NCBI GenBank assembly: GCA_009914755.4
Contig: CP086569.2
Span: 288,001 to 352,000 of the forward strand
Origin: the human T2T-CHM13v2.0 reference genome, Homo sapiens
Reading direction: 5' to 3'
Length of the DNA: 64,000 bases
Shown here: positions 6,665 through 64,000 of the stretch, piece by piece
How positions within the stretch are numbered: the stretch's first letter is position 1
How the letters are laid out: every line of letters starts with the position of its first letter
The notes under the pieces: model-generated
Seen by the model: the letters and a program-made list of their open reading frames with translations, nothing else
Told to the model about the DNA's origin: nothing
Databases searched by the model: none
Translations under genes and position numbers: made by a program

Positions 6665-6915
6665 ACACTGACTGAGGGACTCTATCTATCATCTGTCAAT
6701 CAATCAATCAATCATCTATCTGTCTATCCATTATCTATCTATTTATCCACCTATCATCTATCTATCTATCATCTATCTCTCTCTCATCCGTCCATCCATC
6801 GTCTATTCTATCTGTCATCTATGTATCTATCCATCTAGTCATCCATCTATCTATCCTGTGTGTATTTATCCATTCTATGTATCTATCTATGTATCTATCT
6901 ATGTATCTATCTATG

Positions 6916-6960
<45 letters not shown>

Positions 6961-11284: not shown

Positions 11285-12820
11285 TCCATCTATCACCTAT
11301 CAGTGATCTATCAGTCAATTATCTACCTATTAACTGTCTATATCAATTATCTGTCATACCTATCAATCAGCTATCAATCATTAATCATCTGTCTATATCA
11401 ATTATCCATCATACCTATCAATCAGCTATCATCAATCATCTATCTATACTAATTATCCATCATACATATCAATCAACTAACAATCATCAATCATCAAGCA
11501 TCTATATCAATTATCCATCAAACCTATCAATCATATATCATCAATCATCTATCTGTGTGAATTATCCATCATACCTATCAATCAGCTATCAATCGTCAAT
11601 CATATATATCAATTATCCATCATACCTATCAACCATCTATCAATCATCAATCATCTATATCAATTATCTGTCATACCTATTAATCATCAATCATCTATAT
11701 CAATTATCCATCATACTTATCAATCAACCATCTATCTATATGAATTATCCATCATATCTATCAATCAACTACCTATCATCAATCTATATCAATTATCCAT
11801 CACACCTATCGATCAGCTATCTATCAATCATCAATCATCTATATCAATTATCCATCACACCTATCAATCAACTATTTGTCAATTATCAATCATCTATATC
11901 AATTATGCATCATACCTATTAACTATCATCAATCATCTATCTATATGAATTATCCATCATACCTATCAATCAACTACCTATCAATCTATATCAATTATCC
12001 ATCACACCTATCAATCAACTATTTATCAATTATCAATCATCTATATCAATTATGCATCATACCTATCAACTATCTATCATCAATCATCTATATCAATTAT
12101 CCATCATACCTATCAATCAGCTATCAATCGTCAATCATATATATCAATTATCCATCATACCTATCAACCATCTATCAATCATCAATCATCTATCTATATC
12201 AATTATCTGTCATACCTATTAATCATCAATCATCTATATCAATTATCCATCATACTTATCAATCAACCATCTATCTATATGAATTATCCATCATATCTAT
12301 CAATCAACTACCTATCATCAATCTATATCAATTATCCGTCACACCTATCGATCAGCTATCTATCAATCATCAATCATCTATATCAATTATCCATCACACC
12401 TATCAATCAACTATTTGTCAATTATCAATCATCTATATCAATTATGCATCATACCTATCAACTATCATCAATCATCTATCTATATGAATTATCCATCATA
12501 CCTATCAATCAACTACCTATCAATCTATATCAATTATCCATCACACCTATCAATCAACTATTTATCAATTATCAATCATCTATTTATATCAATTATGCAT
12601 CATACCTATCAACTATCTATCATCAATCATCTATATCAATTATCCATCATACCTATCAATCAGCTATCAATCATCAATCCTTGATCTATATCATTTATGC
12701 ATCAATCATCAATCATCTGTATCAATTATCAATCATCTATTTACCTATCAAATCAACAATCTATCATCTTTCATCATATCTATCAATTGTCCATCAGTCA
12801 GTTATCTACCTGTCTATTCA
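11285..12820. repeat. A/T/C-rich minisatellite with higher-order repeat structure: base motifs of about 55-60 bp and a super-period of about 540 bp
   Basis: The unit has the form caattatccatcatacctatcaatca(a/g)ctatc(t)atcaatcatcaatcatctatat. A long block beginning attatccatcatacctatcaatcagctatcaatcgtcaatcatatatatcaattatccatcatacctatcaaccatctatcaatc recurs almost identically at about 11560 and about 12100. The ORFs at 11876.. and 12415.. give identical peptides. Confidence 0.92.
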
Positions 12821-16334: not shown

Positions 16335-18150
16335 GAGCGTGTCCGCGTGTGTGTGTGCACGTGTGTCCACATGTGTGTGTGGTGTCTGCGTGCCTCTGTG
16401 TGTGTCCGTGTGTGCGCACGCGCCCGTGTGTGTGCATCTGTGTGTGGCGTCAGCATGTGTCTATGTGTGTCCATGTGTGTATGTATGTGTGCATGCATGC
16501 ACCTGTATGTGTGTCTGTGTGCATGCATGTGAGTGTATGTGTGTGTGTCTGAGTGTGAGCGTGCCTATGCACGTGTGTGTGTGCATGTTTCTGTGTGTGC
16601 ATACGCCCATATGTGTGTCTGTGTGCATGCGTGTGAGTGTGTGTGTATGTTAGTGTGAGGGTGGACGTGTGCCTATGCACCTATGTGTGTATGTGTTTCT
16701 GCATGTCTGTGCATGCATGCACCTGTATGCGTGTCTGAGTGCATGCGTGGGAGTGTATGTGCGTGTCTCAGTGTGGGCATGCCTATGCACATATGTGTGC
16801 ACATGTTTCTGTGTGCATATGCTTGCATGTGTGTGTGCATGCATGTGAGTGGATGTGTGTGTGAGTGTGGGCATGCCTATACACGTGTGTGTGTGCATGT
16901 TTCTGTGTGTCTGTATACGCCTGTGTCTTGAGTGTGTGAATGTGCCTATGGACATGTGTGTACATGTTTCTGCATGTCTGTGCATGCATATGCCTGTGTG
17001 TCTGTGTGCATGCGTGTGAGTGTGTGTGTATGTTAGTGTGTGGGTGGACGTGTGCCTATGCACCTATGTGTGTATGTGTTTCTGCATGTCTGTGCATGCA
17101 TGCACCTGTATGCGTGTCTGAGTGCATGCGTGGGAGTATGCGTGTCTCAGTGTGGGCATGCCTATGCACATATGTGTGCACATGTTTCTGTGTGCATATG
17201 CTTGCATGTGTGTGTGCATGCATGTGAGTGGATGTGTGTGTGAGTGTGGGCATGCCTATGCACGTGTGTGTGTGCATGTTTCTGTGTGTCTGTGTATACG
17301 CCTGTGTCTTGAGTGTGTGAATGTGCCTATGGACATGTGTGTACATGTTTCTGCATGTCTGTGCATGCATATGCCTGTGTGTCTCTGTGTGCATGCGTGT
17401 GAGTGTGTGTGTGTGTTAGTGTGAGGGTGGACGTGTGCCTATGCACCTATGTGTGTATGTGTTTCTGCATGTCTGTGCATGCATGCACCTGTATGCGTGT
17501 CTGAGTGCATGCGTGGGAGTGTATGTGCGTGTCTCAGTGTGGACATGCCTATGCACATATGTGTGCACATGTTTCTGTGTGCATATGCTTGCATGTGTGT
17601 GTGCGTGCATGTGAGTGGATGTGTGTGTGTGGGCATGCCTATGCACGTGTGTGTGTGCATGTTTCTGTGTGTCTGTATACGCCTGTGTCTTGAGTGTGTG
17701 AATGTGCCTATGGACATGTGTGTACATGTTTCTGCATGTCTGTGCATGCATATGCCTGTGTGTCTCTGTGTGTATGCGTGTGAGTGGCATTCATGTGTGT
17801 GTATTTGCGTGAGGTGGGCATGCCTATGCACGTATATGTGTACATGTTTCTGTATGTCTGTGCATGCATATGCCTGTATATGTGTCTGTGTGCACATGTG
17901 TTCATATATGTGTGTCTGTGTGAGTGTACATATGCCTATGTACGTACGTGTGTACGTTTCTGTGTATCTGTGTGTCTGTGCGTGCATCTGCCTGTATATG
18001 TGTCTGTGTGTGTGCAAATGTGTCTGTATGTGTGTGTCTGTGTGAATGTGGGTGTGCCTTGTACGTATGTGTGTACATGTTTCTGTGTATCTGTGTACCT
18101 GTGTGTGCATTCGCCTGCATGTCTGTGTGTGTGCATGCATGTCAGTGAAC
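16335..18150. repeat. GT-rich complex minisatellite ((TG)n / GCATG / GTGTGAGTG motifs) with a higher-order period of about 378 bp
   Basis: The block gtgagggtggacgtgtgcctatgcacctatgtgtgtatgtgtttctgcatgtctgtgcatgcatgcacctgtatgcgtgtctgagtgcatgcgtgggagt... recurs at about 16665, about 17045 and about 17420, with degenerate copies on both sides. The track ORFs (C/V/M-rich on plus, H/T-rich on minus) are repeat read-through. Confidence 0.93.
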
Positions 18151-36439: not shown

Positions 36440-37192
<753 letters not shown>

Positions 37193-37194
37193 CA

Positions 37195-37851
<657 letters not shown>

Positions 37852-37924
37852 TAAGCTGTATGCCGGATGCATACGGCCGGCCTATAGTTTCTGCAAATCC
37901 AGAAAAGCTTACTGCAACTGCAGA

Positions 37925-40900
37925 AAGAAAAAAAAAAGAAAGAGAGAAAGAGAGAGAGAGAAGGAGGGAGGGAGGGAGGAAGGAAGGAGAGGGAGGGAGG
38001 GAAGGAAGGAAGGAAAGAAGGAAGGAAAGAAGGAAGGAAGGAGAGGGAGGGAGGAAGGAAGGAAGCAGAGGGAGGAAGGAAGGAGAGGGAGGAAGGAAAG
38101 AAGGAAGGAGACAGAGGGAGGAAGGAGAGGGAGGAAGGAAGGAGAGGGAGGGAGGAAGGAAGGAAGGAGACAGAGGGAGGAAGGAGAGGGAGGAAGGAAG
38201 GAGAGGGAGGGAGGAAGGAGAGGGAGGAAGGAAGGAGAGGGAGGGAGGAAGGAAGGAAGCAGAGGGAGGAAGGAAGGAGAGGGAGGAAGGAAAGAAGGAA
38301 GGAGACAGAGGGAGGAAGGAGAGGGAGGAAGGAAGGAGAGGGAGGGAGGAAGGAGAGGGAGGAAGGAAGGAGAGGGAGGGAGGGAAGGAAGGAAGGAAAG
38401 AAGGAAGGAAAGAAGGAAGGAAGGAGAGGGAGGGAGGAAGGAAGGAAGGAGAGGGAGGAAGGAAAGAAGGAAGGAGAGGGAGGGAGGAAGGAGAGGGAGG
38501 GAGGAAGGAAGGAAGGAGACAGAGGGAGGAAGGAGAGGGAGGAAGGAAGGAGAGGGAGGGAGGAAGGAAGGAAGGAGACAGAGGGAGGAAGGAGAGGGAG
38601 GAAGGAAGGAGAGGGAGGGAGGAAGGAAGGAAGGAGACAGAGGGAGGAAGGAGAGGGAGGAAGGAAGGAGAGGGAGGGAGGAAGGAAGGAAGGAGACAGA
38701 GGGAGGAAGGAGAGGGAGGAAGGAAGGAGAGGGAGGGAGGAAGGAGAGGGAGGAAGGAAGGAGAGGGAGGGAGGGAAGGAAGGAAGGAAAGAAGGAAGGA
38801 AAGAAGGAAGGAAGGAGAGGGAGGGAGGAAGGAAGGAAGGAGAGGGAGGAAGGAAAGAAGGAAGGAGAGGGAGGGAGGAAGGAGAGGGAGGGAGGAAGGA
38901 AGGAAGGAGACAGAGGGAGGAAGGAGAGGGAGGAAGGAAGGAGAGGGAGGGAGGAAGGAAGGAAGGAGACAGAGGGAGGAAGGAGAGGGAGGAAGGAAGG
39001 AGAGGGAGGGAGGAAGGAAGGAAGGAGACAGAGGGAGGAAGGAGAGGGAGGAAGGAAGGAGAGGGAGGGAGGAAGGAAGGAAGGAGACAGAGGGAGGAAG
39101 GAGAGGGAGGAAGGAAGGAGAGGGAGGGAGGAAGGAGAGGGAGGGAGGAAGGAGAGGGAGGAAGGAAGGAAGGAAGGAGACAGAGGGAGGAAGGAGAGGG
39201 AGGAAGGAAGGAGAGGGAGGGAGGAAGGAAGGAAGGACACAGAGGGAGGAAGGAGAGGGAGGAAGGAAGGAGAGGGAGGGAGGAAGGAAGGAAGGAGACA
39301 GAGGGAGGAAGGAGAGGGAGGAAGGAAGGAGAGGGAGGGAGGAAGGAGAGGGAGGGAGGAAGGAAGGAGAGGGAGGAAGGAAGGAAGGAGACAGGGAGGA
39401 AGGAGAGGGAGGGAGGAAGGAGAGGGAGGGAGGAAGGAAGGAAGGAGACAGAGGGAGGAAGGAGAGGGAGGGAGGAAGGAGAGGGAGGGAGGAAGGAGAG
39501 GGAGGGAGGAAGGAGAGGGAGGAAGGAAGAGGGAGGAAGGAAGGAGAGGGAGGGAGGAAGGAGAGGGAGGGAGGAAGGAGAGGGAGGGAGGAAGGAGAGG
39601 GAGGGAGGAAGGAGAGGGAGGGAGGAAGGAGAGGGAGGGAGGAAGGAGACAGAGGGAGGAAGGAGAGGGAGGAAGGAAGGAGAGGGAGGGAGGAAGGAGA
39701 GGGAGGGAGGAAGGAGAGGGAGGAAGGAAGGAAGGAAGGAGACAGAGGGAGGAAGGAGAGGGAGGAAGGAAGGAGAGGGAGGGAGGAAGGAAGGAAGGAG
39801 TCAGAGGGAGGAAGGAGAGGGAGGAAGGAAGGAGAGGGAGGGAGGAAGGAGAGGGAGGGAGGAAGGAGAGGGAGGGAGGAAGGAAGGAAGGAGACAGAGG
39901 GAGGAAGGAGAGGGAGGAAGGAAGGAGAGGGAGGGAGGAAGGAAGGAAGGACACAGAGGGAGGAAGGAGAGGGAGGAAGGAAGGAGAGGGAGGGAGGAAG
40001 GAAGGAAGGAGACAGAGGGAGGAAGGAGAGGGAGGAAGGAAGGAGAGGGAGGGAGGAAGGAGAGGGAGGGAGGAAGGAGAGGGAGGGAGGAAGGAAGGAG
40101 AGGGAGGAAGGAAGGAAGGAGACAGAGGGAGGAAGGAGAGGGAGGGAGGAAGGAGAGGGAGGGAGGAAGGAAGGAAGGAGACAGAGGGAGGAAGGAGAGG
40201 GAGGAAGGAAGGAGAGGGAGGGAGGAAGGAGAGGGAGGAAGGAGAGGGAGGAAGGAGAGGGAGGAAGGAAGGAGACAGAGGGAGGAAGGAGAGGGAGGGA
40301 GGAAGGAGAGGGAGGGAGGAAGGAGAGGGAGGAAGGAAGGAGAGGGAGGAAGGAAGGAAGGAAGGAGACAGAGGTAGGAAGGAGAGGGAGGAAGGAAGGA
40401 GAGGGAGGGAGGAAGGAAGGAAGGAGACAGAGGGAGGAAGGAGAGGGAGGAAGGAAGGAGAGGGAGGGAGGAAGGAGAGGGAGGAAGGAAGGAGACAGAG
40501 GGAGGAAGGAGAGGGAGGAAGGAAGGAGAGGGAGGGAGGAAGGAGAGGGAGGAAGGAAGGAGACAGAGGGAGGAAGGAGAGGGAGGAAGGAAGGAGAGGG
40601 AGGGAGGAAGGAGAGGGAGGAAGGAAGGAGACAGAGGGAGGAAGGAGAGAGAGGAAGGAAGGAGAGGGAGGGAGGAAGGAGAGGGAGGAAGGAAGGAGAC
40701 AGAGGGAGGAAGGAGAGGGAGGAAGGAAGGAGAGGGAGGGAGGAAGGAGAGGGAGGAAGGAAGGAGACAGAGGGAGGAAGGAGAGGGAGGAAGGAAGGAG
40801 AGGGAGGGAGGAAGGAAGGAAGGAGACAGAGGGAGGAAGGAAGGAAGGAGACAGAGGGAGGAAGGAGAGGGAGGAAGGAAGGAGAGGGAGGGAGGAAGGA

Positions 40901-43445
40901 GAGGGAGGGAGGAAGGAGAGGGAGGAAGGAAGGAGACAGAGGGAGGAAGGAGAGGGAGGAAGGAAGGAGAGGGAGGGAGGAAGGAGAGGGAGGAAGGAAG
41001 GAGACAGAGGGAGGAAGGAGAGGGAGGAAGGAAGGAGAGGGAGGGAGGAAGGAGAGGGAGGAAGGAAGGAGACAGAGGGAGGAAGGAGAGGGAGGAAGGA
41101 AGGAGAGGGAGGGAGGAAGGAAGGAAGGAGACAGAGGGAGGAAGGAAGGAAGGAGACAGAGGGAGGAAGGAGAGGGAGGAAGGAAGTAGAGGGAGGGAGG
41201 AAGGAGAGGGAGGGAGGAAGGAGAGGGAGGAAGGAAGGAGACAGAGGGAGGAAGGAGAGGGAGGAAGGAAGGAGAGGGAGGGAGGAAGGAGAGGGAGGAA
41301 GGAAGGAGACAGAGGGAGGAAGGAGAGGGAGGAAGGAAGGAGAGGGAGGGAGGAAGGAGAGGGAGGAAGGAAGGAGACAGAGGGAGGAAGGAGAGGGAGG
41401 AAGGAAGGAGAGGGAGGAAGGAAGGAGAGGGAGGAAGGAAGGAGACAGAGGGAGGAAGGAGAGGGAGGAAGGAAGGAGAGGGAGGGAGGAAGGAAGGAAG
41501 GAGACAGAGGGAGGAAGGAGAGGGAGGAAGGAAGGAGAGGGAGGAAGGAAGGAAGGAAGGAGACAGAGGGAGGAAGGAAGGAAGGAGACAGAGGGAGGAA
41601 GGAGAGGGAGGAAGGAAGGAGAGGGAGGGAGGAAGGAAGGAAGGAGACAGAGGGAGGAAGGAAGGAAGGAGACAGAGGGAGGAAGGAGAGGGAGGGAGGA
41701 AGGAGAGGGAGGGAGGAAGGAAGGAAGGAGACGGAGGAAGGAAGGAGAGGGAGGGAGGAAGGAAGGAAGGAGATGGAGGAAGGAAGGAGAGGGAGGAAGG
41801 AAGGAGAGGGAGGAAGGAAGGAGAGGGAGGAAGGAAGGAGAGGGAGGAAGGAAGGAGAGGGAGGAAGGAAGGAGAGGGAGGGAGGAAGGAAGGAGATAGA
41901 GGGAGGAAGGAGAGGGAGGGAGGAAGGAGAGGGAGGGAGGAAGGAAGGAAGGAGAGGGAGGGAGGAAGGAGAGGGAGGGAGGAAGGAAGGAGAGGGAGGA
42001 AGGAGAGGGAGGGAGGAAGGAAGGAGAGGGAGGGAGGAAGGAAGGAGATGGAGGGAGGAAGGAGACGGAGGAAGGAAGGAGAGGGAGGGAGGAAGGAAGG
42101 AAGGAGACGGAGGAAGGAAGGAGAGGGAGGGAGGAAGGAAGGAGACGGAGGAAGGAGACGGAGGAAGGAAGGAGAGGGAGGAAGGAAGGAAGGAAGGAGA
42201 TGGAGGAAGGAAGGAGAGGGAGGAAGGAAGGAGGGAAGGGAGGGAGGAAGGAAGGAGACAGAGGGAGGAAGGAGACAGAGGGAGGAAGGAGAGGGAGGGA
42301 GGAAGGAAGGAAGGAAGGAGAGGGAGGAAGGAAGGAAGGAAGGAGACAGAGGGAGGAAGGAAGGAGACGGAGGAAGGAAGGAGAGGGAGGGAGGAAGGAA
42401 GGAAGGAGATGGAGGAAGGAAGGAGAGGGAGGAAGGAAGGAGAGGGAGGGAGGAAGGAAGGAAGGAGACGGAGGAAGGAAGGAGAGGGAGGGAGGAAGGA
42501 AGGAGACGGAGGAAGGAGACGGAGGAAGGAAGGAGAGGGAGGAAGGAAGGAAGGAGATGGAGGAAGGAAGGAGAGGGAGGAAGGAAGGAGGGAAGGGAGG
42601 GAGGAAGGAAGGAGAGGGAGGGAAGGAAGGAGAGGGAGGGAGGAAGGAGGGAAGGGAGGGAGGAAGGAAGGAGAGGGAGGGAGGAAGGAAGGAGACGGAG
42701 GAAGGAGAGGGAGGAAGGAAGGAGAGGGAGGAAGGAAGGAAGGAGAGGGAGGAAGGAAGGGAAGGGAGGAAGGAAGGGAAGGGAGGGAGGAAGGAAGGAA
42801 GGAGACGGAGGAAGGAAGGAGAGGGAGGGAGGAAGGAAGGAGACGGAGGAAGGAGACGGAGGAAGGAAGGAGAGGGAGGAAGGAAGGAAGGAAGGAGATG
42901 GAGGAAGGAAGGAGAGGGAGGAAGGAAGGAGGGAAGGGAGGGAGGAAGGAAGGAGAGGGAGGGAAGGAAGGAGAGGGAGGAAGGAAGGAGAGGGAGGGAG
43001 GAAGGAGGGAAGGGAGGGAGGAAGGAAGGAGAGGGAGGGAGGAAGGAAGGAGACGGAGGAAGGAGAGGGAGGAAGGAAGGAGAGGGAGGAAGGAAGGAAG
43101 GAGAGGGAGGAAGGAAGGGAAGGGAGGAAGGAAGGGAAGGGAGGGAGGAAGGAAGGAGAGGGAGGAAGGAAGGAAAGAGAGGGAGGAAGGAAGGGAAGGG
43201 AGGAAGGAAGGGAAGGGAGGGAGGAAGGAAGGAGAGGGAGGAAGGAAGGAGAGGGAGGAAGGAAGGGAAGGGAGGGAGGAAGGAAGGAGAGGGAGGAAGG
43301 AAGGAGAGGGAGGAAGGAAGGAAGGAAGGAGATGGAGGAAGGAAGGAGAGGGAGGAAGGAAGGAGGGAAGGGAGGGAGGAAGGAAGCAGAGGGAGGGAAG
43401 GAAGGAAGGAGGGGAGGGAGGAAGGAAAGAAAGAAGGAAGGAAGA
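37925..43445. repeat. Giant polypurine (GGAA/GGGA/GAGG) tandem array of about 5.5 kb, purine on plus and pyrimidine on minus, with two sub-domains: 37925-41770 and 41770-43445
   Basis: Domain 1 units such as ggaaggaaggagacagagggaggaaggagagggaggaaggaaggagagggagggag are reiterated about 60-70 times with small length variants. Domain 2 switches to gacggagg/gatggagg/gggaagggagg variants (ggaaggagacggaggaaggaaggagagggagggaggaag...). The plus strand is essentially 100% A+G apart from scattered C/T in gacag/gacgg/gatgg. The 1109-aa (+), 681-aa (-) and 596-aa ORFs are stop-free read-through (E/G/R/K on plus, S/L/P/F on minus). Confidence 0.97.
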
Positions 43446-43753
43446 TTCTAATTCAAATCAGTTGCTTAAGAGGGAGAGATCAGGAAGTTCCCAACTAAAG
43501 TGCTGGGGTGACAGGTGTGAGCCACCATGCCCGGCCAGGTTCCCCAGCTGTTTGGACAAGTAGTAACAAGTAGCTAACTGCAAATGCACAAAGAAAGAAG
43601 GAGGAAAGAAAGAAAGAGAGAGAGAGAAGGAAGAAAGGAAAGAGAAAGAAGAAAAGAAAAAACCAATTCTAATTCAAATCAGTTGCTTAAGAGGGAGAGA
43701 TCAGGAAGAAAGAAAGAAGGAAAGAGAAAGAAAGGAAAAGAAGAAAGAAAGAG

Positions 43754-43808
<55 letters not shown>

Positions 43809-43860
43809 AAAACAAATCCTAATTCAAATCACTTGCTTAAGAGGGAGAAATAAGGCAATT
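43443..43860. repeat. Composite flank: a 40-bp motif (ttctaattcaaatcagttgcttaagagggagagatcagg) repeated 3 times, interleaved with (GAAA)n/(GA)n tracts and an Alu-end-like piece
   Basis: Copies sit at about 43447, about 43668 and about 43815, the last as ...tcctaattcaaatcacttgcttaagagggagaaataagg. (aagaaaga)n runs lie at 43600-43660 and 43700-43810. aaagtgctggggtgacaggtgtgagccaccatgcccggccagg at about 43497-43545 is an Alu 5'-end reverse complement. Confidence 0.85.
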
Positions 43861-44697
43861 TCCCACCAGGAGGATGCCGTCTAGATCGGACGGTGTTGTT
43901 GGTACGGGACCTGACTCTGAAGTCACTAACAAAACTCCCAGGCTTTGTGCAAAGGAGAACCTCTAAGCCCCCGGGAACGGCGTTTTCTCGCTCGCCACCA
44001 TGAGTCTGGCTGGCTCGCCTCCTTGTAGAACGAGGTGGCCGCAAGTTTGGCGGCCTCTGGAGAAACGGCGGTGCATTTGTTGACGTAAGAAGTAATGTAG
44101 AGGGTGGGGGAGTGTCTGTTCCATGATAATTTCTGAATAGTGCGTTTCTCCGGAGCCATACATCATTGTCAAGTCAGAAGATTACACGTACCGTTGCCTT
44201 TGTGAACCGGGGACTCGGGGTGGGGGCAAATGTCCCCAAATGCAAATCCGCCTGGTAGATAGAGTGAGATAGATATGAATGTAGACACCACGGGTCTCCT
44301 TCCCCGACAACCCACCTTTTTTTGTTTGTTTGTTTTAGGTGATTCAGGGACAAAGCTTTCCTGGAACAACAAGGCTGAAATTACATCATCATTGCAGACG
44401 TCCGTCGGCAAGCGGCGTTTTATTTCAAGGCTAGGAGCTGAAATGATCGTGTTCAGTCACGCACACCGTCTATGATAAGGTAGGTCTGGGCGGGAAGGGA
44501 GGTGCAGAATACATGCAATCATTCATCGAGATGAAAATAAAGTCAATCGAGCGCTCTCCCCCTGGAGGGAACAGGAAGGCAAACGTTTGTCTGGCTGAAA
44601 ACACAGGCAAAAAAATTTAGACGTTGTCTATAGCTGCAACCAGATTTGGAGACAGAGGCCAAGCACCTGAATCGTTGCCCCAACTTTCTAGTTTTAA

Positions 44698-45040
<343 letters not shown>

Positions 45041-45284
45041 CTACACACACGTTTATATACACACATACCTGACCATATATATGCATACATCTATATTTAT
45101 CACACATACGTACATAGATGTATGGATTTTGTTACAGACAGAAACTTAATTTAACCATCTCTGACACATTGCTTCTTAAATTATAAAGCCACTTTCCCAC
45201 TTTCCCGATATCCACTGGTGGCACACTGAATCTGAGTTAGTTCTAAATGTTTCAATGCGATTGTGTGTATATATGCCTTCCTAG

Positions 45285-46430
45285 AATGGGATGTATACAG
45301 CTGGCCTGTGGTCTCTCCCTCCCTAGAGTGAGATGTATACGGTTGGCCTGCAGTCTGTCTTTCTAGTGTGGGATGTATACAGCTGGCCTGTTGTCTCCCT
45401 CTGTAGAGTGGGATGTATACAGCCGGCCTGCGGTTTCTTTCTTCCTAGAGTGGGATGTATACAGCCGGCCTGTGGTCTGTCTCTCTAGTGTGGGATGTAT
45501 ACAGTTGGCCTGTGGTGTTTCTCCCTAGAGGGGGATGTATATAGTCAGCCCGTGGTTTCTTTCTTCCTAGTGTGGGATGTATACAGCCGGCCTATGGTCT
45601 GTCTCTCTAGTGTGGGATGTATACAGCTGGCCTGTGGCCTCCCTCTCTAGAGTGGGATGTATACAGTTGGTCTGTGGTCTCTTCCTCCCTAGAGTGGAAT
45701 GTATACAGCCGGCCTGTGGTCTCTCTTTCTAGAGAAGGATGTATACAGCCGGCCTGTGGTCTCCCTCCCAGGAGTGGAATGTATACAGTCGGCCTGCGGT
45801 CTCCCTCCCAGGAGTGGGATGTATACAGCCGGCCTGTGGTCTCTCTTTCTAGAGAAGGATGTATACAGCAGCCTGCGGTCTCCCTCCCAGGAGTGGAATG
45901 TATACAGCCGGCCTGTGCTCTCCCTCCCAGGAGTGATATGTATACAGCCGGCCTGTGGTCTCCCTCCCTAGAGTGATATGTATACAGTTGGCCTGTGGTC
46001 TCCCTCCCAGGAGTGGGATGTATACAGCCGGCCTGTGGTCTCTCTTTCTAGAGAAGGATGTATACAGCCGGCCTGTGGTCTCCCTCCCAGGAGTGGGATG
46101 TATACAGCAGCCTGCGGTCTCCCTCCCAGGAGTGGAATGTATACAGCCGGCCTGTGGTCTCTCTTTCTAGAGAAGGATGTATACAGCCGGCCTGTGGTCT
46201 CCCTCCCAGGAGTGGGATGTATACAGCAGCCTGCGGTCTCCCTCCCAGGATTGGAATGTATACAGCCGGCCTGTGGTCTCCCTCCCTAGAGTGATATGTA
46301 TACAGTCGGCCTGTGGTCTCCCTCCCTAGAGTGATATGTATACAGTCGGCCTGTGGTCTCCCTCCCAGGAGTGGGATGTATACAGTCGGCCTGTGGCCTT
46401 CCTGCCTGGTGTGTATACAGCAGGCCTGTA
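45285..46430. repeat. 40-bp minisatellite, about 28 copies (gagtgggatgtatacagccggcctgtggtctccctcccag and variants)
   Basis: Regular repetition of (a/g)agtgg(g/a)atgtatacag(c/t)(c/t)ggcctg(t/c)ggtctc(c/t)ct(c/t)(c/t)c(t/c)ag. Variants include ...agagaaggatgtatacag..., a 34-bp form lacking cg (...atgtatacagcagcctgcggtctccctcccagg) and ...agtgatatgtatacag.... The track ORFs repeat MYTAGLWSPSLEWDVYSRPVVSL. Confidence 0.96.
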
Positions 46431-48370: not shown

Positions 48371-48729
<359 letters not shown>

Positions 48730-48730: not shown

Positions 48731-49130
48731 AAACACAAAGAGAAAGAGAAGAAAGAGACAGGATGGAAGGAAGGAAGGAAGGAAGGAAGGAAGGAAGGAA
48801 AAAGAAGAAAGAAAGAAAGAAAGAAGAAAAGGAAGGAAGGAAAAAGAAAGAGACAGAGGGGAAGAAAGGAATGAAAGAAGAAAAAAGAAAGTAAGAGAAA
48901 GAAAAGAAAGAAAGAGGAAGAAAGGAAGGAAGGAAAAAAGAAAGAAAGAGACAGGAAGAAAGGAAGGAAAGAAGGAAAAAAGAAAGACAAGAAAAAGAAA
49001 CGAAGGGAAAGGAAGAAAGGAAGGAAGGAAGAAAGAAAAGAAAGACAAAGACAGAAAGGAAGAAAGGAAGGAAGGAAGGAAAAAGAAATGAAAGAAAAGA
49101 AAGAGAAAAGAGAGACAAAAAGGCTGTAAG
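48730..49130. repeat. GA-rich (GGAA)n/(GAAA)n/(AAAG)n purine tract of about 400 bp, an expanded Alu tail
   Basis: aaagagaaagagaagaaagagacaggatggaaggaaggaaggaaggaaggaaggaaggaaaaagaagaaagaaagaaagaaagaagaaaagg.... The 214-aa and 186-aa ORFs are repeat read-through. Confidence 0.93.
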
Positions 49131-49814: not shown

Positions 49815-50855
49815 CATGCACTGGAGACTCTGAGATGAGCATTGCAGACTCTGAGATGTGCACTGGAGATTCTGAATGGGCATTGGAGACTCTGAGATGG
49901 ACACTGGAGGCTCTGAGCTGTGCTTTGGAGATTCTGAGATGCGCATTGGAGACTCTGAGGTGTGCATTGGAGACTCTGAGATGGACACTGGAGGCTCTGA
50001 GCTGTGCTTTGGAGATTCTGAGATGTGCATTGGAGACTCTGAGCTGTGCTTTGGAGATTCTGAGATGTGCATTGGAGACTCTGAGATGGGCACTGGAGAC
50101 TAAGATGTGCATTGGAGACTCTGAGGTGTGCTTTGGAGACTCTGAGATGTGCTTTGGAGACTCTGAGATGTGCTTTGGAGACTCTGAGGTGTCCATTGGA
50201 GACTCTCAGATGTGCATTGGAGACTCTGAGATGGGCATTGGAGATTCTGAGCTGTGCTTTGGAGACTCTGAGATGGGCACTGGAGATTCTGAGATGTGCA
50301 TTGGAGACTCTGAGATGGGCACTGGAGACTAAGATGTGCATTGGAGACTCTGAGGTGTGCTTTGGAGACTCTGAGATGTGCTTTGGAGACTCTGAGGTGT
50401 CCATTGGAGACTCTCAGATGTGCATTGGAGACTCTGAGATGGGCATTGGAGATTCTGAGCTGTGCTTTGGAGACTCTGAGATGGGCACTGGAGACTCTGA
50501 GATGTGCATTGGAGACTCTGAGATGGGCACTGGAGACTCTGACGTGTGCTTTGGAGACTCTGAGATGGGCATTGGAGACCCTGAGGTGTGCATTGGAGAC
50601 TCTGACGTGGGCATTGGAGACTGAGATGGGCATTGGAGACTCTGAGATGTGCTTTGGAGATTCCGATATGTGCATTGGAGACCCTGAGGTGTGCACTGCA
50701 GACACTGAGGTGTGCATTGGACACTCTGACGTGGGCACTGGAGACTGAGATGGGTACGGGAGACTCTGAGGTGTGCATTGCAGACTCTGAGGTGTGCTTT
50801 AGAGACTGTGAGATGGGCACTGCAGAGGCTGAGGTGTGCTTTGGACACTCTGGTG
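49815..50855. repeat. 21-bp minisatellite, about 50 copies (gagactctgagatgtgcattg and variants)
   Basis: The unit is ggagactctgag(a/g/c)tg(t/g)gc(a/t)(t/c)t(g), with variants gagatg/gaggtg/gagctg/gacgtg and tgcattgg/tgctttgg/ggcactgg/ggcattgg/tccattgg. It is stop-free in all frames, giving (ETLRCAL)n on plus and (SESPKHI/LRVSNAH)n on minus, which accounts for all the 135-219 aa ORFs here. Confidence 0.97.
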
Positions 50856-52394: not shown

Positions 52395-54195
52395 GCGTGC
52401 CCCCACACACATGCGCACATGTCCGGAAGGCAAGCACACACCCACCGTCATGAGCCCTCACGTGCAGGTGCATGCACGCATTCTTGCAAACCCCACACAT
52501 GCACACAAGCCCATATGCATATATGTGTACAGAAGGCAAGCACACATTCACAGTCATGAGCCCTCACGTGCAGGTGCATGCACGCATTCTTGCAAGCCCC
52601 ACACATGCACACAAGTGCATATGCATATACATGTACAGAAGGCAAGCACACACAGCCATGAGCCCTCACGTGCAGGTGCATGCATGCATTCTTGCAAACC
52701 CCACACATGCACACAAGCCCATATGCATATATGTGTACAGAAGTCAAGCACACACTGATAGTCATGAGCGCTCACATACAACTGCATGCATGCATTCATT
52801 CAAGCTCCCACATGCACAGATGCACACAAGTATCTCTGCACAGAGGTGTACAGAAGGCAAGCACACATTCAGTCATGAGCCCTCACGTGCAGGTGCATGC
52901 ACGCATTCTTGCAAACCCCACACATGCACACAAGCCCATATGCATATATGTGTACAGAAGGCAAGCACACACCCACAGCCATGAGCCCTCACGTGCAGGT
53001 GCATGCATGCATTCATTCAAGCCTCCACATGCACACAAGCCCATATGCATATATGTGTACAGAAGGCAAGCACACATTCACAGTCATGAGCCCTCACGTG
53101 CAGGTGCATGCACGCATTCTTGCAAGCCCCACACATGCACACAAGCCCATATGCATATATGTGTACAGAAGGCAAGCACACACTGATAGTCATGAGCGCT
53201 CACATACAACTGCATGCATGCATTCATTCAAGCCCCCACATGCACAGATGCACACAGGTATCTCTGCACAGAGGTGTACAGAAGGCAAGCACACATTCAC
53301 AGTCATGAGCCCTCACGTGCAGGTGCATGCACGCATTCTTGCAAACCCCACACATGCACACAAGCTCATATGCATATACGTGTACAGAAGGCAAGCACAC
53401 ACCCACAGCCATGAGCCCTCACGTGCAGGTGCATGCATGCATTCTTGCAAACCTCACACATGCACCCAAGCCCATATGCATATATGTGTACAGAAGGCAA
53501 GCACACATTCACAGTCATGAGCCCTCATGTGCAGGTGCATGCACGCATTCTTGCAAGCCTCACACATGCACACAAGCACATATGCATATACGTGTACAGA
53601 AGGCAAGCACACATTCACAGTCATGAGCCCTCACATGCAGGCGCATGCACGCATTCTTGCAAGCCCCACACATGCACACAAGCACATATGCATATACATG
53701 TACAGAAGGCAAGCACACACAGCCATGAGCCCTCACGTGCAGGTGCATGCATGCATTCTTGCAAACCCCACACATGCACACAAGCCCATATGCATATATT
53801 TGTACAGAAGTCAAGCACACACTGATAGTCATGAGCGCTCACATACAACTGCATGCATGCATTCATTCAAGCTCCCACATGCACAGATGCACACAAGTAT
53901 CTCTGCACAGAGGTGTACAGAAGGCAAGCACACATTCAGTCATGAGCCCTCACGTGCAGGTGCATGCACGCATTCTTGCAAACCCCACACATGCACACAA
54001 GCCCATATGCATATATGTGTACAGAAGGCAAGCACACATTCACAGTCATGAGCCCTCACGTGCAGGTGCATGCACGCATTCTTGCAAGCCTCACACATGC
54101 ACACAAGCCCATATGCATATACGTGTACAGAAGGCAAGCACACACAGCCATGAGCCCTCACATGCAAATGCACATGCACATACACGCACAATGCA
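52395..54195. repeat. Minisatellite of about 106-110 bp, about 17 copies, with higher-order structure (variant units recur every 4-5 copies)
   Basis: The common unit is agccctcacgtgcaggtgcatgca(c/t)gcattcttgcaa(a/g)cc(c/t)cacacatgcacacaag(c/t)(c/g)catatgcatata(t/c)(g/a)tgtacagaaggcaagcacaca(ttcacagtc)atg. A longer variant, agcgctcacatacaactgcatgcatgcattcattcaagctcccacatgcacagatgcacacaagtatctctgcacagaggtgtacagaaggcaagcacacattcagtcatg, recurs at about 52763, about 53193 and about 53832. Identical ORF peptides in the track at 52472/52680/52897/53108/53327/53433/53747/53964 reflect this. Confidence 0.95.
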
Positions 54196-58934: not shown

Positions 58935-60762
58935 GCATCCCAGGACGCAGGTGGATCCGAGTCTGCTGCATAGACGGCCATTAGGTCCCAGGATGGAGCT
59001 GGATTCGAGCCTGCTGTGTAGACGGCCATTAGGTCCCAGTCCCAGGATGGAGCTGGATTCAAGCCTGCTATGTAGATGGCTATTAGGTCCCAGGATGCAG
59101 GTGGATCTGAGTCTGCTGCATAGAAGGCCATTAGGTCCCAGGATGGAGCTGGATTCGAGCCTGCTGTGTAGACAGCCATTAGGTCCCGGGATGCAGCTAC
59201 ATCTGAGCCTGCTGCATAGATGGCCATTAGGTCCTGGGATGGAGCTGCATTGGACCCTGCTGTGTAGACAGCCATTAGGTCCCAGGATGCAGCTACATCT
59301 GAGCCTGCTGCATAGATGGCCATTAGGTCCTGGGATGGAGCTGCATTGGACCCTGCTGTGTAGACAGCCATTAGGTCCCAGGATGCAGCTACATCTGAGC
59401 CTGCTGCATAGATGGCCATTAGGTCCTGGGACGGAGCTGCATTGGACCCTGCTGTGTAGAGAGCCATTAGGTCCTGGGATGTAGCTGCATCCGAGTCTGC
59501 TGTGTAGACGGCCATTAGGTCCCAGTCCCAGGATGGAGCTGGAGTTGAGCCTGCTATGTAGATGGCTATTAGGTCCCAGGACGCAGGTGGATCCGAGTCT
59601 GCTGCATAGATGGCCATTAGGTCCCAGGATGGAGCTGGATTCGAGCCTGCTGTGTAGACGGCCATTAGGTCCCAGTCCCAGGATGGAGCTGGAGTGGAGC
59701 CTGCTATGTAGATGGCTATTAGGTCCCAGGACGCAGGTGGATCCGAGTCTGCTGCATAGATGGCCATTAGGTCCCAGGATGGAGCTGGATTCGAGCCTGC
59801 TATGTAGATGGCTATTAGGTCTCGGGATGCAGCTACATCTGAGCCTGCTGCATAGATGGCCATTAAGTCCTGGGACGGAGCTGCATTGGACCCTGCTGTG
59901 TAGACAGCCATTAGGTCCTGGGATGCAGCTGCATCTGAGCCTGCTGCATAGATGGCCATTAGGTCCTGGGACAGAGCTGCATTGGACCCTGCTGTGTAGA
60001 CAGCCATTAGGTCCCAGGATGTAGCTGCATCCGAGTCTGCTGCATAGATGGCCATTAGGTCCCAGTCCCAGGATGGAGCTGGATTCGAGCCTGCTGTGTA
60101 GACGGCCATTAGGTCCCAGTCCCAGGATGGAGCTGGAGTCGAGCCTGCTGTGTAGACGGCCATTAGGTCCCAGTCCCAGGATGGAGCTGGATTCGAGCCT
60201 GCTATGTAGATGGCTATTAGGTCCCGGGATGCAGCTACATCTGAGCCTGCTGCATAGACGGCCATTAAGTCCTGGGACAGAGCTGCATTGGACCCTGCTG
60301 TGTAGACAGCCATTAGGTCCCAGGATGTAGCTGCATCCGAGTCTGCTGCATAGATGGCCATTAGGTCCCAGTCCCAGGATGGAGCTGGATTCGAGCCTGC
60401 TGTGTAGACGGCCATTAGGTCCCAGTCCCAGGATGGAGGTGGAGTCGAGCCTGCTGTGTAGACGGCCATTAGGTCCCAGTCCCAGGATGGAGCTGGATTC
60501 GAGCCTGCTATGTAGATGGCTATTAGGTCCCGGGATGCAGCTACATCTGAGCCTGCTGCATAGACGGCCATTAAGTCCTGGGACGGAGCTGCATTGGACC
60601 CTGCTGTGTAGACAGCTATTAGGTCCCGGGATGCAGCTACATCTGAGCCTGCTGCATGGACGGCCATTAGGTCCTGGGACGGAGCTGCATTGGACCCTGC
60701 TGTGTAGACAGCCATTAGGTCCCGGGATGTAGCTGCATCCGAGCCTGCTGTGTAGACAGCCA
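58935..60762. repeat. 48/54-bp minisatellite, about 36 copies (ggccattaggtcccaggatggagctggattcgagcctgctgtgtagac, with or without agtccc)
   Basis: Very regular repetition. Variants at the sub-motifs are gatg(c/g)ag(c/g)t(g/a)(g/c)at(t/c)(c/t)ga(g/c)(c/t)ctgctg(c/t)(a/g)tagac(g/a)gc(c/t)attaggtcc(c/t)(a/g)gg, with optional (agtccc) after ggtccc. It is stop-free on both strands, giving the 669-aa and 646-aa minus ORFs ((DLMAVYTAGSNAAPSQ)n and (LGPNGRLHSRLESSSI)n) and the plus ORFs ((LLCRRPLGPRMELDSS)n). Confidence 0.97.
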
Positions 60763-62087: not shown

Positions 62088-63058
62088 CCCTGCTGCATAG
62101 ACGGCCATCAGGTCCCAGGATGGAGCTGGATTCGAGCCTGCTGTGTAGACACCCATTAGGTCCTGGGACGGAGCTGGATTCGAGTCTGCTGCATAGACGG
62201 CCATTAGGTCCCGGGACGGAGCTGGATTCGAGCCTGCTGTGTAGACAGCCATTAGGTCCTGGGATGGAGTTGGATTCGAGCCTGCTGTGTAGACAGCCAT
62301 TAGGTCCTGGGACAGAGCTGGATTCGAGTCTGCTGCATAGACGGCCATTATGTCCCGGGATGGAGCTGGATTCGAGCCTGCTGTGTAGACAGCCATTAGG
62401 TCCCGGGACAGAGCTGGATTCGAGTCTGCTGCATAGATGGCCATTAGGTCCCGGGATGGAGCTGGATTCGAGCCTGCTGTGTAGACAGCCATTAGGTCCT
62501 GGGATGGAGTTGGATTCGAGCCTGCTGTGTAGACAGCCATTAGGTCCCGGGACGGAGCTGGATTTGAGTCTGCTGCATAGATGGCCATGAGGTCCCAGGA
62601 CGGAGCTGGATTCGAGCCTGCTGTGTAGACATCCATTAGGTCCTGAGACGGAGCTGGATTCAAGTCTGCTGCATAGACGGCCATTAGGTCCCGGGACGCA
62701 GGTGGATCCAAGTCTGCTGCATAGATGGCCATTAGGTCCCAGGATGGAGCTGGATTTGAGTCTGCTGCGTAGATGACCATTAGGTCCTAGTCCCAGGATG
62801 GAGCTGCATAGGAGCCTGCTGTGTAGACAGCCATTAGGTCCCAGTCCCAGGATGGAGCTGGAGTCGAGCCTGCTGTGTAGACAGCCATTAGGTCCCAGTC
62901 CCAGGATGGAGCTGGAGTCAAGCCTGCTGTGTAGACGGCCATTAGGTCCCAGGATGCAGGTACATCCTAGTCTGCTGCATAGACGGCCATTAGGTCCCAG
63001 TCCCAGGATGGAGCTGCATAGGAGCCTGCTGTGTAGACAGCCATTAGGTCCCAGTCCC
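62088..63058. repeat. Second 48/54-bp minisatellite array, about 20 copies, of the same family and orientation as 58935-60762
   Basis: ctgctgcatagacggccatcaggtcccaggatggagctggattcgagcctgctgtgtagacacccattaggtcctgggacggagctggattcgagtctgctgcatagacgg.... 54-bp variants with agtccc lie at 62780-63058. The 401-aa and 273-aa minus ORFs and the 156-aa plus ORF are repeat read-through. Confidence 0.96.
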
Positions 63059-63059: not shown

Positions 63060-64000
63060 ACACACACAAACCACAGTAAACACATACACTATGCACAACA
63101 CAGATGCCACACCACACACACACAACACATAAAATACACAGTACACACAAAACACATACTGCACACAACACACAGAATACACACTACACACAGCACACAC
63201 AAACCACACTAAACACATATGCTATGCACAACAAAGATGCCACACAACACACACACATAGAACACACAAAATATACACAACACACACAAACCACACTAAA
63301 CACATATGCACAACACAGATGCCACAGAACACACACACATAAAACACGCAAATACATACTATACACAACACAGCACAAACCACACACTGCACACACAAAT
63401 GCACACTACACACAAACCACACAAACCACACTAAACACACACACTCTGCACAGTACAAACACCACACTAAATACACATATACACAAAATACATATGACAC
63501 ACAAAATACATAGAAAAACACAGACTGGCCTCACAAACCACACACACTATGCACAACACAGATGCCACACCACACACACACATATAACACACAAAATACA
63601 CACTACACACAGCACACACAAACCACACTAAACACATATGCACAACACAGATGCCACACAACACGCACACACCCAACACACAAAATACACACTACACACA
63701 ACACACACAAACCACAGTAAACACACACTATGCACAATACAGATACCAGACAACAGACACTTACAACACACAAAATACACACTACACACAACACACACAA
63801 ACCACAGTAAACACATACACTGTGCACAACAGATGCCACACAACACACACACATACAACACACAAAATACACACAAACCACACTAAACACATATTCTGTG
63901 CGCAAAACAGATGCCACATAAAACACACACATGCAACACACAAAATACCTACTACATATACACAACACTAAACACAGACGTTATGCACAACACAGATGCC
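63060..64000. repeat. CA-rich minisatellite with an irregular period of about 85-135 bp (cacaacacagatgccacacaacacacacacat..aaacacacaaaatacacactacacacagcacacacaaaccacactaaacacatatgc). It continues past the window end
   Basis: The landmark cacaacacagatgccaca recurs at about 63091, 63226, 63311, 63553, 63641, 63730 (diverged), 63826 and 63988. The plus strand has only about 1-2% G (apart from the agatgccaca landmark) and is about 55% A and 35% C. The H/T/Q/N-rich and C/V-rich ORFs are artefacts. Confidence 0.93.

What the first reader, a model, noticed from the sequence alone, without database searches (positions are those of the whole stretch)
37925..43445. A 5.5-kb uninterrupted polypurine·polypyrimidine tract with two compositionally distinct sub-domains
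Purine or pyrimidine mirror-repeat tracts of tens to hundreds of bp are common, but a roughly 5.5 kb essentially pure R·Y block is exceptional. Domain 1 (37925-41770) is built from gacagaggg-containing units of about 60 bp. Domain 2 (41770-43445) uses gacggagg/gatggagg/gggaagggagg variants and so introduces regularly spaced CpGs. Established biophysics says such a tract can adopt intramolecular triplex (H-DNA), stalls replication forks and RNA polymerase, and is prone to expansion or contraction. (GGAA)n tracts are also known binding arrays for ETS-family factors, for example the EWS-FLI1 GGAA-microsatellite enhancers. The domain switch implies two successive amplification episodes from different seed variants. 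The array is likely to be highly length-polymorphic and under-represented or collapsed in short-read assemblies.
Basis: partly seen in the sequence, partly recalled or inferred. Interest (0 to 1): 0.6.

Follow-up and report, generated by a model that had tools for sequence, protein, structure and literature searches.

The report
Giant expanded GA-rich tandem repeat
A 5.5-kb stretch of primate non-coding DNA that is 98.5% purine on one strand is a real, hugely over-grown GA-rich tandem repeat; it belongs to a known class of triplex-prone, hard-to-sequence repeats, is unusual for its size, and shows no sign of a dedicated function.

Summary
The block is real and lies at 37922-43445 (5524 bp), but it is not uninterrupted. 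It holds 81 pyrimidines, about one per 68 bp, and its longest pure purine run is 278 bp. It is a hierarchical tandem repeat. GGAA/GGGA tetramers build blocks of mostly 17 nt. Those blocks build 59/68/93-nt units bounded by a C-marked block. The units build higher-order repeats of about 305-391 bp, some duplicated with 100% identity. There are at least four sub-domains, not two, and base composition is the same throughout; only motif variants and 14 CpGs differ.

The array is one of three paralogous GA microsatellites in a locally duplicated module. The other two are 73 and 110 bp, so this copy expanded about 50-75-fold. H-DNA-type mirror repeats are extremely dense: 32 per kb, covering 63% of the tract. 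Canonical G4 motifs are absent, and GGAA never runs longer than 4 copies, which weakens the EWS-FLI1 analogy. All six frames are open, so the long ORFs are artefacts of composition.

The window is primate, non-coding, 23% Alu and 36% tandem repeat. That profile resembles published descriptions of human PAR1, but I could not map it. Verdict: an unusually long member of the known R·Y / GA-microsatellite class, most likely neutral.

The parts
37922..43445 (+). Main polypurine (purine on the + strand) composite tandem array: 5524 bp, 98.5% purine, 81 pyrimidine interruptions.
   Evidence: TRF gives period 17 and 327 copies.
37922..37962 (+). A-rich / (GA)n leader: AGAAAG-A10-GAAAG(AG)n. This is the ancestral microsatellite edge and is homologous to the left edge of GA2.
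   Evidence: In one search, 37906-37965 aligns to 43572-43631 at 86.7% identity.
37963..39087 (+). Sub-domain A. A 391-bp higher-order repeat made of a 214-nt unit containing GGAAAGAAGG plus three 59-nt units. The duplication 38306-38696 = 38697-39087 is exact.
   Evidence: lag 391, identity 0.89; unit string ...ECCCECCC...; 460-bp exact run at lag 391.
39088..40427 (+). Sub-domain B. Mixed 59- and 93-nt units bounded by GACAGAGGG and enriched in GAGGGAGGGAGG blocks.
   Evidence: One search shows a 202-bp exact run at lag 714.
40428..41731 (+). Sub-domain C. 68-nt units (4 x 17), eight of them identical, with 25-nt short units. Higher-order periods are 305 and 373 bp.
   Evidence: One search shows a 231-bp exact run at lag 305.
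41732..43445 (+). Markers are GACGGAGG and GATGGAGG, with GGGAAGGGAGG variants. It holds all 14 CpGs and has a higher-order repeat of about 350 bp, in which the 42/38/13-bp CpG spacing triplet recurs three times.
   Evidence: One search shows exact runs at lags 358 and 698.
37778..37822 (-). Alu 5'-end fragment at the start of duplicated module copy 1. It is a paralogue of 43497-43541.
   Evidence: Alu positions 1-45, minus strand; 93.3% identity to 43497-43541.
43446..43487 (+). 42-bp motif ATTCTAATTCAAATCAGTTGCTTAAGAGGGAGAGATCAGGAAG that follows the big array. It repeats at 43667-43708 (100% identity) and 43819-43865 (89%).
   Evidence: One search finds 3 matches against 0 expected.
43497..43541 (-). 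Alu 5'-end fragment at the start of module copy 2.
43590..43662 (+). GA2: an unexpanded paralogous GA/AAAG microsatellite of 73 bp.
   Evidence: Both its edges align to the edges of the big array.
43703..43812 (+). GA3: an unexpanded paralogous (AAAG)n microsatellite of 110 bp.
   Evidence: (TRF period 4, 26.5 copies).
48737..49098 (+). A separate GA-rich block directly after the 3' end of a + strand Alu (48605-48722). It also has GAGACAG interruptions and contains (GGAA)9 at 48765, the longest pure GGAA run in the window.

Best explanation
The tract is a non-coding, hyper-expanded composite GA-rich micro/minisatellite. It is a by-product of repeat dynamics and not a dedicated functional element.

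Shown:
- It sits in a locally duplicated module made of an Alu-head fragment, a spacer, a GA microsatellite and a 42-bp motif. The module occurs three times in tandem, and the other two microsatellites are only 73 and 110 bp.
- Both edges of the big array are homologous to the edges of the small copy, so about 5.4 kb was generated inside one ancestral microsatellite of about 100 bp.
- The interior follows a strict grammar, GGAGA(GGGA)1-2(GGAA)1-4, with a modal block of 17 nt.
- A single variant block, GGAGA-CAGA-GGGA-GGAA, marks 59/68/93-nt units.
- Those units form higher-order repeats of about 305-391 bp, some duplicated with 100% identity.

Inferred:
- An A-rich microsatellite became G-enriched.
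- It then grew by replication slippage at the block level, and by unequal sister-chromatid or homologue exchange, or gene conversion, at the unit and higher-order level.
- This happened in several rounds, the latest very recent.
- The GACGGAGG variant arose once. Its CpG decayed to TpG at one higher-order position, and both were then co-amplified.

Consequences, taken from established biophysics and not tested here:
- The tract offers dozens of short H-DNA (intramolecular triplex) motifs. It is therefore expected to impede replication and transcription in an orientation-dependent way and to be length-unstable.
- GA-rich arrays of this kind are also documented causes of sequencing drop-out.
For: - Purity, boundaries and interruptions.
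- Periodicity and hierarchy: period 17, 327 copies; lags 17, 59, 68, 391, 373, 358; grammar; 127 of 190 non-empty blocks are 17 nt.
- Homogeneity: 13 identical 59-nt units, 8 identical 68-nt units; 460-bp exact run at lag 391, with others at lags 305, 714, 358 and 698.
- Paralogous module and unexpanded sister microsatellites.
- Non-coding context: no credible Pfam domain in 233 ORFs; 0-1 stop codons in each of the six frames, as expected when T is nearly absent on one strand and A on the other; no RNA family in the array, only Alu-derived hits nearby.
- H-DNA motif density: using the definition read.
- Repeat-rich primate setting: 36% tandem repeats; 23% Alu.
- Literature: PKD1 tract (PMC11667243); GA-microsatellites and HiFi drop-out in PAR1 (10.1101/2022.12.01.518724); GA-rich drop-out (PMC13456413); 200-320-bp tracts of the same GGAA/GGGA type in many human genes (PMC4589756).
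Against: - No functional or population data could be consulted, so neutrality is a default inference and not a result.
- The genomic location and species were not established.
- Triplex formation, fork stalling and length polymorphism are inferred from other loci.
- The mirror arms are short (22 nt at most) and the tract is interrupted every 68 bp or so. Structure formation could therefore be weaker than the total length suggests.
- Exact internal duplications could in principle also come from assembly error in a GA-rich region.
Confidence: 0.8

Rival explanations
1. The assembled length is wrong. The locus is real, but its 5.5-kb length or internal order comes from mis-assembly or patching of a GA-rich region that long-read chemistries cover poorly.
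For: - GA-microsatellites caused HiFi coverage drop-outs and graph breaks, 9 of 11 of them in PAR1, and these were patched with ONT assemblies.
- GA-rich drop-out is also noted in PMC13456413.
- The array contains long exact internal duplications, which are the kind of sequence assemblers can miscount.
Against: - Both junctions to unique flanks are present in one continuous sequence.
- The interior is not noisy. It follows a strict grammar with diagnostic variants arranged in ordered sub-domains.
- There is no sign of the scattered homopolymer-type errors expected from raw long-read consensus.
Confidence: 0.08
2. The tract is a functional protein-binding array. Candidates include an ETS/GGAA-type enhancer (EWS-FLI1-responsive in Ewing sarcoma), or a platform for purine-motif binders that acts as an enhancer, silencer or boundary.
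For: There are 567 GGAA cores, or 103 per kb, including 12 runs of (GGAA)4. Four consecutive repeats is the definitional minimum for a GGAA microsatellite.
Against: - No run is longer than 4 repeats. Maximum consecutive length, not cumulative GGAA count, predicts chromatin opening, with a break near 11 repeats (PMC13082088).
- Rapid internal turnover and 100%-identical recent duplications point to drift, not a constrained architecture.
- The sister copies are only 73 and 110 bp.
- The best GGAA microsatellite in the window, (GGAA)9 at 48765, lies elsewhere.
Confidence: 0.06
3. The tract is a selected structural element: a programmed replication-fork or transcription barrier, or a recombination-promoting site, in a highly recombining (PAR1-like) region.
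For: - H-DNA motif density is extreme.
- R·Y tracts stall forks in an orientation-dependent way (PMC11667243).
- From memory, not read here: long R·Y tracts are reported to cluster in the pseudoautosomal region (Bacolla 2006, cited).
Against: - The PRDM9 13-mer is depleted, not enriched: 7 matches against about 48 expected from composition.
- No canonical G4 motifs are present.
- Nothing distinguishes selection from mutational by-product, and the location is unproven.
Confidence: 0.05
4. The tract is protein-coding low-complexity sequence. Mechanical ORF calling lists ORFs of up to 1109 aa, rich in Gly, Glu, Arg and Lys.
For: One search lists ORFs at 37860-41189 (1109 aa), 41773-43563 (596 aa) and 37909-39954 on the minus strand (681 aa).
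Against: - All six frames carry 0-1 stops. This follows automatically from the near-absence of T on one strand and of A on the other.
- The ORFs end exactly at rare T interruptions, for example TAG at 41187.
- No such protein is on record.
- There are no domains nearby.
Confidence: 0.01

Closest known systems
PKD1 intron 21 polypyrimidine element (PyRE), 2.5 kb
   Same: It is a kb-scale, strongly strand-asymmetric R·Y block in primate non-coding DNA, made of many short mirror repeats (23 perfect ones in PKD1). It is shown experimentally to form triplexes, stall replication and cause fragility (PMC11667243).
   Different: - The present tract is about 2.2 times longer.
- It is an overt hierarchical tandem array with a 17-nt block and higher-order repeats, not a loosely repetitive tract.
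- It was not shown to lie in a gene.
- No experimental data exist for it here.
Long homopurine·homopyrimidine tracts of the human genome / GA-microsatellites of PAR1
   Same: - The sequence type matches: GGAA/GGGA/GAAA-based purine tracts, such as the 319-bp SHANK2 example in PMC4589756.
- GA-microsatellites are reported as enriched in Alu-rich PAR1, where they break HiFi assemblies.
- This window is likewise Alu-rich and rich in tandem repeats.
   Different: - Most catalogued tracts are 100-320 bp and uninterrupted. This one is 5.5 kb, interrupted every 68 bp or so, with a maximum pure run of 278 bp.
- Placement in PAR1 is inferred, not demonstrated.
GGAA microsatellites used as neo-enhancers by EWS-FLI1
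   Same: GGAA is the commonest tetramer in the array, at 103 cores per kb, with 12 runs of (GGAA)4.
   Different: Active GGAA microsatellites depend on long consecutive GGAA runs, with a break near 11 repeats (PMC13082088). Here the maximum is 4, because GGAA is constantly interleaved with GGGA and GGAGA.
Retroelement-tail-derived purine repeat expansions (RFC1 AAGGG at an AluSx3 poly(A) tail; FXN GAA)
   Same: - The array has an A-rich leader (A10 and AAAG) and has drifted from A-rich to G-rich purine motifs.
- The nearby block at 48737-49098 clearly grows out of an Alu 3' end.
- RFC1's location at an Alu tail is stated in PMC11667243.
   Different: - For the big array no intact upstream retroelement 3' end was identified. 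The adjacent Alu fragments are in the opposite orientation.
- The unit is a complex 17-nt block with higher-order repeats, not a pure 3-5-mer.

Membership tests
Homopurine·homopyrimidine (R·Y) tract | One strand is (near-)exclusively purine over a long stretch. | tested here: met
   The tract is 98.5% purine over 5524 bp. Eleven pure runs reach 100 bp and one reaches 250 bp (278 bp). It is not uninterrupted, having 81 pyrimidines.
H-DNA-forming motif (definition of PMC11879447) | Mirror repeat with arm of at least 10 bp, spacer under 8 bp, at least 90% AG or CT, and AT below 80%. | tested here: met
   There are 176 distinct motifs (32 per kb) covering 63% of the tract, with a maximum arm of 22 nt (definition read).
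H-DNA-forming motif | Actual intramolecular triplex formation (S1 or permanganate sensitivity under supercoiling). | not testable with these tools
   This needs S1/KMnO4 footprinting or PDAL-seq-type data (PMC12637528) mapped to the locus.
Tandem repeat with higher-order structure (minisatellite-like array) | Head-to-tail copies of a unit, with multi-unit blocks repeated as wholes. | tested here: met
   TRF gives period 17 and 327 copies. Lags of 59, 68, 391, 373 and 358 appear. A 391-bp block is duplicated exactly.
EWS-FLI1-responsive GGAA microsatellite | At least 4 consecutive GGAA repeats (the definitional minimum). | tested here: met
   There are 12 runs of exactly (GGAA)4 (definition).
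EWS-FLI1-responsive GGAA microsatellite | A long consecutive GGAA run (more than about 11 repeats), which is what correlates with accessibility and activity. | tested here: not met
   The maximum consecutive run is 4 repeats (PMC13082088).
EWS-FLI1-responsive GGAA microsatellite | EWS-FLI1 or ETS occupancy. | not testable with these tools
   No ChIP data are accessible here.
G-quadruplex-forming sequence | Four G3+ runs separated by loops of 1-7 nt. | tested here: not met
   There are 0 canonical motifs, 31 with loops up to 12 nt, and 307 two-tetrad (G2) motifs.
PRDM9 hotspot-motif array | Enrichment of CCNCCNTNNCCNC. | tested here: not met
   There are 7 matches against 48 +/- 7 in composition-matched shuffles, and no strict CCTCCCTNNCCAC. 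The motif itself is from memory.
SVA-derived (CCCTCT)n hexamer expansion | Tandem AGAGGG/CCCTCT hexamers next to Alu-like fragments in the SVA arrangement. | tested here: not met
   No AGAGGGAGAGGG occurs anywhere in the window. The adjacent Alu fragments are in the wrong orientation for a reverse-strand SVA (SVA layout from memory).
Human pseudoautosomal region 1 (location) | The sequence maps to Xp22.33/Yp11.3 PAR1. | not testable with these tools
   Only circumstantial evidence exists: 23% Alu, 36% tandem repeats, 49% GC, CpG o/e 0.39, and large GA microsatellites, compared with the description. No mapping tool or primate genome was available.

The most novel reading that the evidence does not exclude
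This array is among the longest near-pure R·Y blocks in a primate genome. By forming many triplexes, it acts as a strong, orientation-dependent replication or transcription barrier and a hotspot of breakage and unequal exchange. That activity would shape recombination or structural variation in a pseudoautosomal or subtelomeric region.
Probability: 0.1. Interest if true: 0.55.

Novelty: new member of a known kind. Interest (0 to 1): 0.3.

Why it matters
If the length is correct, this is an extreme natural example of a triplex-prone sequence, about twice the size of the PKD1 tract that has served as the model. It also has a built-in control: two unexpanded sister microsatellites lie only 150-400 bp away. 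That makes it a convenient locus for three things:
- studying how purine microsatellites grow into kb-scale arrays;
- benchmarking long-read accuracy in GA-rich DNA;
- testing whether very long R·Y blocks cause fork stalling, fragility or length instability in vivo.

It does not by itself reveal a new kind of element.

Tried and rejected
- **Coding potential.** The ORFs of 1109, 681 and 596 aa are artefacts. All six frames carry 0-1 stops, and no such proteins are on record.
- **Locus identification through proteins.** 233 non-repeat ORFs of at least 52 aa gave no credible Pfam hit. The best E-values, 0.0035 and 0.0066, are chance level for that many tests. A homologue search with the 114-aa ORF next to the array found nothing.
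- **Independent copies of the locus.** Exact-pattern scans found nothing in metagenome contigs (flank motif, array unit), GTDB genome contigs or viral contigs. These collections do not hold primate DNA, so length polymorphism and orthology could not be tested.
- **Literature search with repeat-unit strings**. The only hit was a different locus, SHANK2.
- **Bacolla et al. 2006 (PMC1464109).** This key survey of long R·Y tracts is not held. Statements about it rest on its title as cited in other papers and on my memory.
- **PRDM9 motif array.** Rejected.
- **Canonical G-quadruplex array.** Rejected.
- **SVA hexamer origin.** Rejected.
- **RNA families.** None in the array. Nearby hits (7SL, mir-1268, mir-3135, mir-619) are all Alu-derived and below their gathering scores.
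- **CpG-island call over 41661-43240**. It is an artefact of the tiny C count inflating the observed/expected ratio.
Full report
**1. Is it there?**

Yes. The + strand from 37922 to 43445 (5524 bp) is 98.5% purine, against 48.7% in the rest of the window. The binomial tail probability underflows, so it is below 1e-300.

The title word 'uninterrupted' is not right. There are 81 pyrimidines (70 C, 11 T), on average one per 68 bp. The longest pure purine run is 278 bp (43055-43332). Eleven runs reach 100 bp and only one reaches 250 bp.

**2. Anatomy**

TRF calls a single array at 37946-43442 with period 17, 327 copies and 81% matches. Tokenising the sequence shows a strict grammar. The basic block is GGAGA(GGGA)1-2(GGAA)1-4. 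Of 190 non-empty blocks, 127 are 17 nt long and the rest are 13, 21 or 25 nt.

It bounds units of 59 nt (13 spacings), 68 nt (10 spacings), 93 nt and other lengths. Thirteen 59-nt units are identical to each other, as are eight 68-nt units.

The units are organised into higher-order repeats:
- a 391-bp block duplicated exactly (38306-38696 = 38697-39087, giving a 460-bp exact run at lag 391);
- exact runs of 231 bp at lag 305 and 202 bp at lag 714;
- exact runs of 179 bp at lag 358 and 177 bp at lag 698.

By periodicity and marker type there are at least four sub-domains:
- 37963-39087, with the 391-bp repeat and GGAAAGAAGG-containing units;
- 39088-40427, with 59- and 93-nt units;
- 40428-41731, with 68-nt units;
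- 41732-43445, with GACGGAGG and GATGGAGG markers, GGGAAGGGAGG variants and a repeat of about 350 bp.

They differ in motif variants and in 14 CpGs, all of them between 41732 and 43054. The CpG spacings follow a 42/38/13-bp triplet that recurs three times. GATGGAGG units occupy fixed positions in the higher-order repeat. This fits a single CpG-to-TpG change that was then co-amplified (inference).

**3. Surroundings and origin**

The array is not an isolated object. Immediately downstream lie two small GA-rich microsatellites, 43590-43662 (73 bp) and 43703-43812 (110 bp). All three are followed by the same motif, ATTCTAATTCAAATCAGTTGCTTAAGAGGGAGAGATCAGGAAG. The copy at 43446-43487 is 100% identical to 43667-43708, and 43819-43865 is 89% identical. 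That gives 3 matches against 0 expected.

The first two microsatellites are also preceded by the same Alu 5'-end fragment (37778-37822 and 43497-43541, 93% identical) and by a related spacer ending in ACTGCAA(C/A)TGCA. The left edge of the big array aligns to the left edge of the 73-bp copy (37906-37965 vs 43572-43631, 86.7%). Its right edge aligns too (43367-43487 vs 43597-43708, 80%).

So a microsatellite-bearing module was duplicated locally, and one copy then expanded about 50-75-fold from within. A fourth GA-rich block at 48737-49098 grows directly out of the 3' end of a + strand Alu. It also carries GAGACAG interruptions.

**4. What kind of DNA is this?**

The window is primate. Sub-threshold 7SL and Alu-derived miRNA family hits confirm this independently. 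Tandem repeats make up 36% of the window. GC is 49% and CpG observed/expected is 0.39.

No credible protein domain was found in 233 non-repeat ORFs, so the window looks intronic or intergenic. The long ORFs across the array are artefacts, because all six frames carry 0-1 stops.

The profile matches the published description of human PAR1 as Alu-enriched and rich in GA-microsatellites that break HiFi assemblies (10.1101/2022.12.01.518724). I could not map the window, so PAR1 remains an inference. A subtelomeric region would fit equally well.

**5. Structural potential**

I used the H-DNA definition of the T2T survey: arm of at least 10 bp, spacer under 8 bp, at least 90% AG or CT, and AT below 80% (PMC11879447). 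By that definition the tract holds 176 distinct motifs, which is 32 per kb with 63% coverage. The rest of the window has 0.6 per kb, and that paper reports about 1 per 25 kb genome-wide. Composition-matched shuffles give 41-70 motifs against 321 observed at spacer 8 or less.

The arms are short, 22 nt at most. The expected behaviour is therefore many small H-motifs, as in the PKD1 tract, which has 23 perfect mirror repeats in 2.5 kb (PMC11667243). It is not a giant triplex like the 797-bp-arm motif reported in T2T-CHM13.

Other motif tests:
- Canonical G4 motifs are absent (0). Only long-loop (31) and two-tetrad (307) motifs exist.
- The PRDM9 13-mer is depleted: 7 matches against about 48 expected.
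- There is no SVA-type hexamer run.

**6. The ETS/EWS-FLI1 idea**

GGAA cores are abundant (567, or 103 per kb), but the run-length distribution is 134 runs of 2, 44 of 3 and 12 of 4, with none longer. Long-read work on Ewing sarcoma reports that the maximum consecutive GGAA length, not the cumulative count, predicts accessibility. It finds a break near 11 repeats and uses 4 repeats as the definitional floor (PMC13082088). The array therefore only just qualifies and is unlikely to behave like the classical enhancer microsatellites. The longest pure run in the window, (GGAA)9, is at 48765 in the Alu-tail block.

**7. Mechanism**

The best-supported reading is a neutral, hyper-expanded composite repeat. 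An A-rich/GA microsatellite became G-enriched. It then grew by slippage at the 17-nt block level and by unequal exchange or conversion at the unit and higher-order level. This took several rounds, and the latest was recent enough to leave 100%-identical copies.

What is shown: the hierarchy, the exact duplications, the unexpanded paralogues, and the non-coding context. What is inferred: the order of events, the mechanism of amplification, neutrality, and in vivo triplex formation, fork stalling and length polymorphism.

The main caveat is assembly reliability in GA-rich DNA. Against an artefact, the interior is orderly and not noisy, and both unique junctions are present.

**8. Comparison and novelty**

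The tract is an unusually long member of the known class of R·Y / GA-rich purine repeats. It is about 2.2 times the length of the PKD1 element and more than 10 times the typical 200-320-bp genic tracts of the same motif type (PMC4589756).

It fails the tests for a long-run GGAA enhancer microsatellite, a canonical G4 array, a PRDM9 motif array and an SVA hexamer expansion. Nothing suggests a new kind of element.

Interest is modest. The size, and the internal control provided by the sister microsatellites, make it a good model locus, but a specialist aware of GA-microsatellites in complete assemblies would not be very surprised.

**9. What could not be done**

No primate genome, mapping tool or population assembly set was available. 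Protein and DNA scans of the public collections returned nothing. Location, orthology, length polymorphism and every experimental signal therefore remain open.

Noticed in passing
window 36452-37500: A block of about 1 kb that is about 92% A+T (AT-rich minisatellites with periods 7-77) lies 420 bp upstream of the polypurine array. An Alu insertion at 36906-37186 splits it. It contains many imperfect inverted repeats (for example 53-nt arms, 75% complementary, 23 nt apart), so a cruciform-prone AT-rich tract sits next to a triplex-prone tract.
   Followed up: partly
window 3942-5179: A 155-bp unit repeated 8 times at 98% identity, built from Alu fragments. This is an Alu-derived minisatellite that has been homogenised very recently.
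   Followed up: no
window 6681-7397, 10425-11016, 11377-12740: Large TCTA-type arrays of 717 and 592 bp, plus a 539-bp higher-order TCTA/ATCA-rich repeat (2.5 copies, 93% identity). They produce strong negative GC skew on the + strand.
   Followed up: no
window 58938-60762 and 62089-63052: Two blocks of the same 48-bp minisatellite (about 37 and about 20 copies, 78-82% matches), separated by about 1.3 kb of CpG-rich unique sequence.
   Followed up: no
window 45276-46403; also 37850-37900: A 199-bp minisatellite (5.6 copies) whose unit (GATGTATACAGCCGGCC...) resembles a segment in the left flank of the polypurine array (gtatgccggatgcatacggccggcc). This suggests the whole 37.8-46.4 kb region was built by local duplications.
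   Followed up: partly
window 16612-17894, 49817-50852, 52426-54166, 63540-63874: Further large-unit tandem repeats: a TG-rich 383-bp unit x3.3, a 208-bp unit x5, a 425-bp unit x4.1, and a CA-rich 89-bp unit x3.7. In total 36% of the window is tandem repeat.
   Followed up: no
window 48765-48800: (GGAA)9 inside an Alu-tail-derived GA-rich block. This is the longest pure GGAA run in the window and a better candidate ETS-type microsatellite than the giant array.
   Followed up: partly
window 43841-44160: A short CpG-rich segment (18 CpGs in 320 bp) lies about 400 bp downstream of the array. It has no protein-homologue hit and no Rfam hit, and its nature (a degenerate repeat element or a small CpG island) is undetermined.
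   Followed up: partly
window 44856-44907 (- strand): A mir-1268 family match of 73.6 bits, below the gathering score of 83, lying inside an Alu (44754-45039). It is an Alu-derived hairpin and was not treated as a gene.
   Followed up: partly
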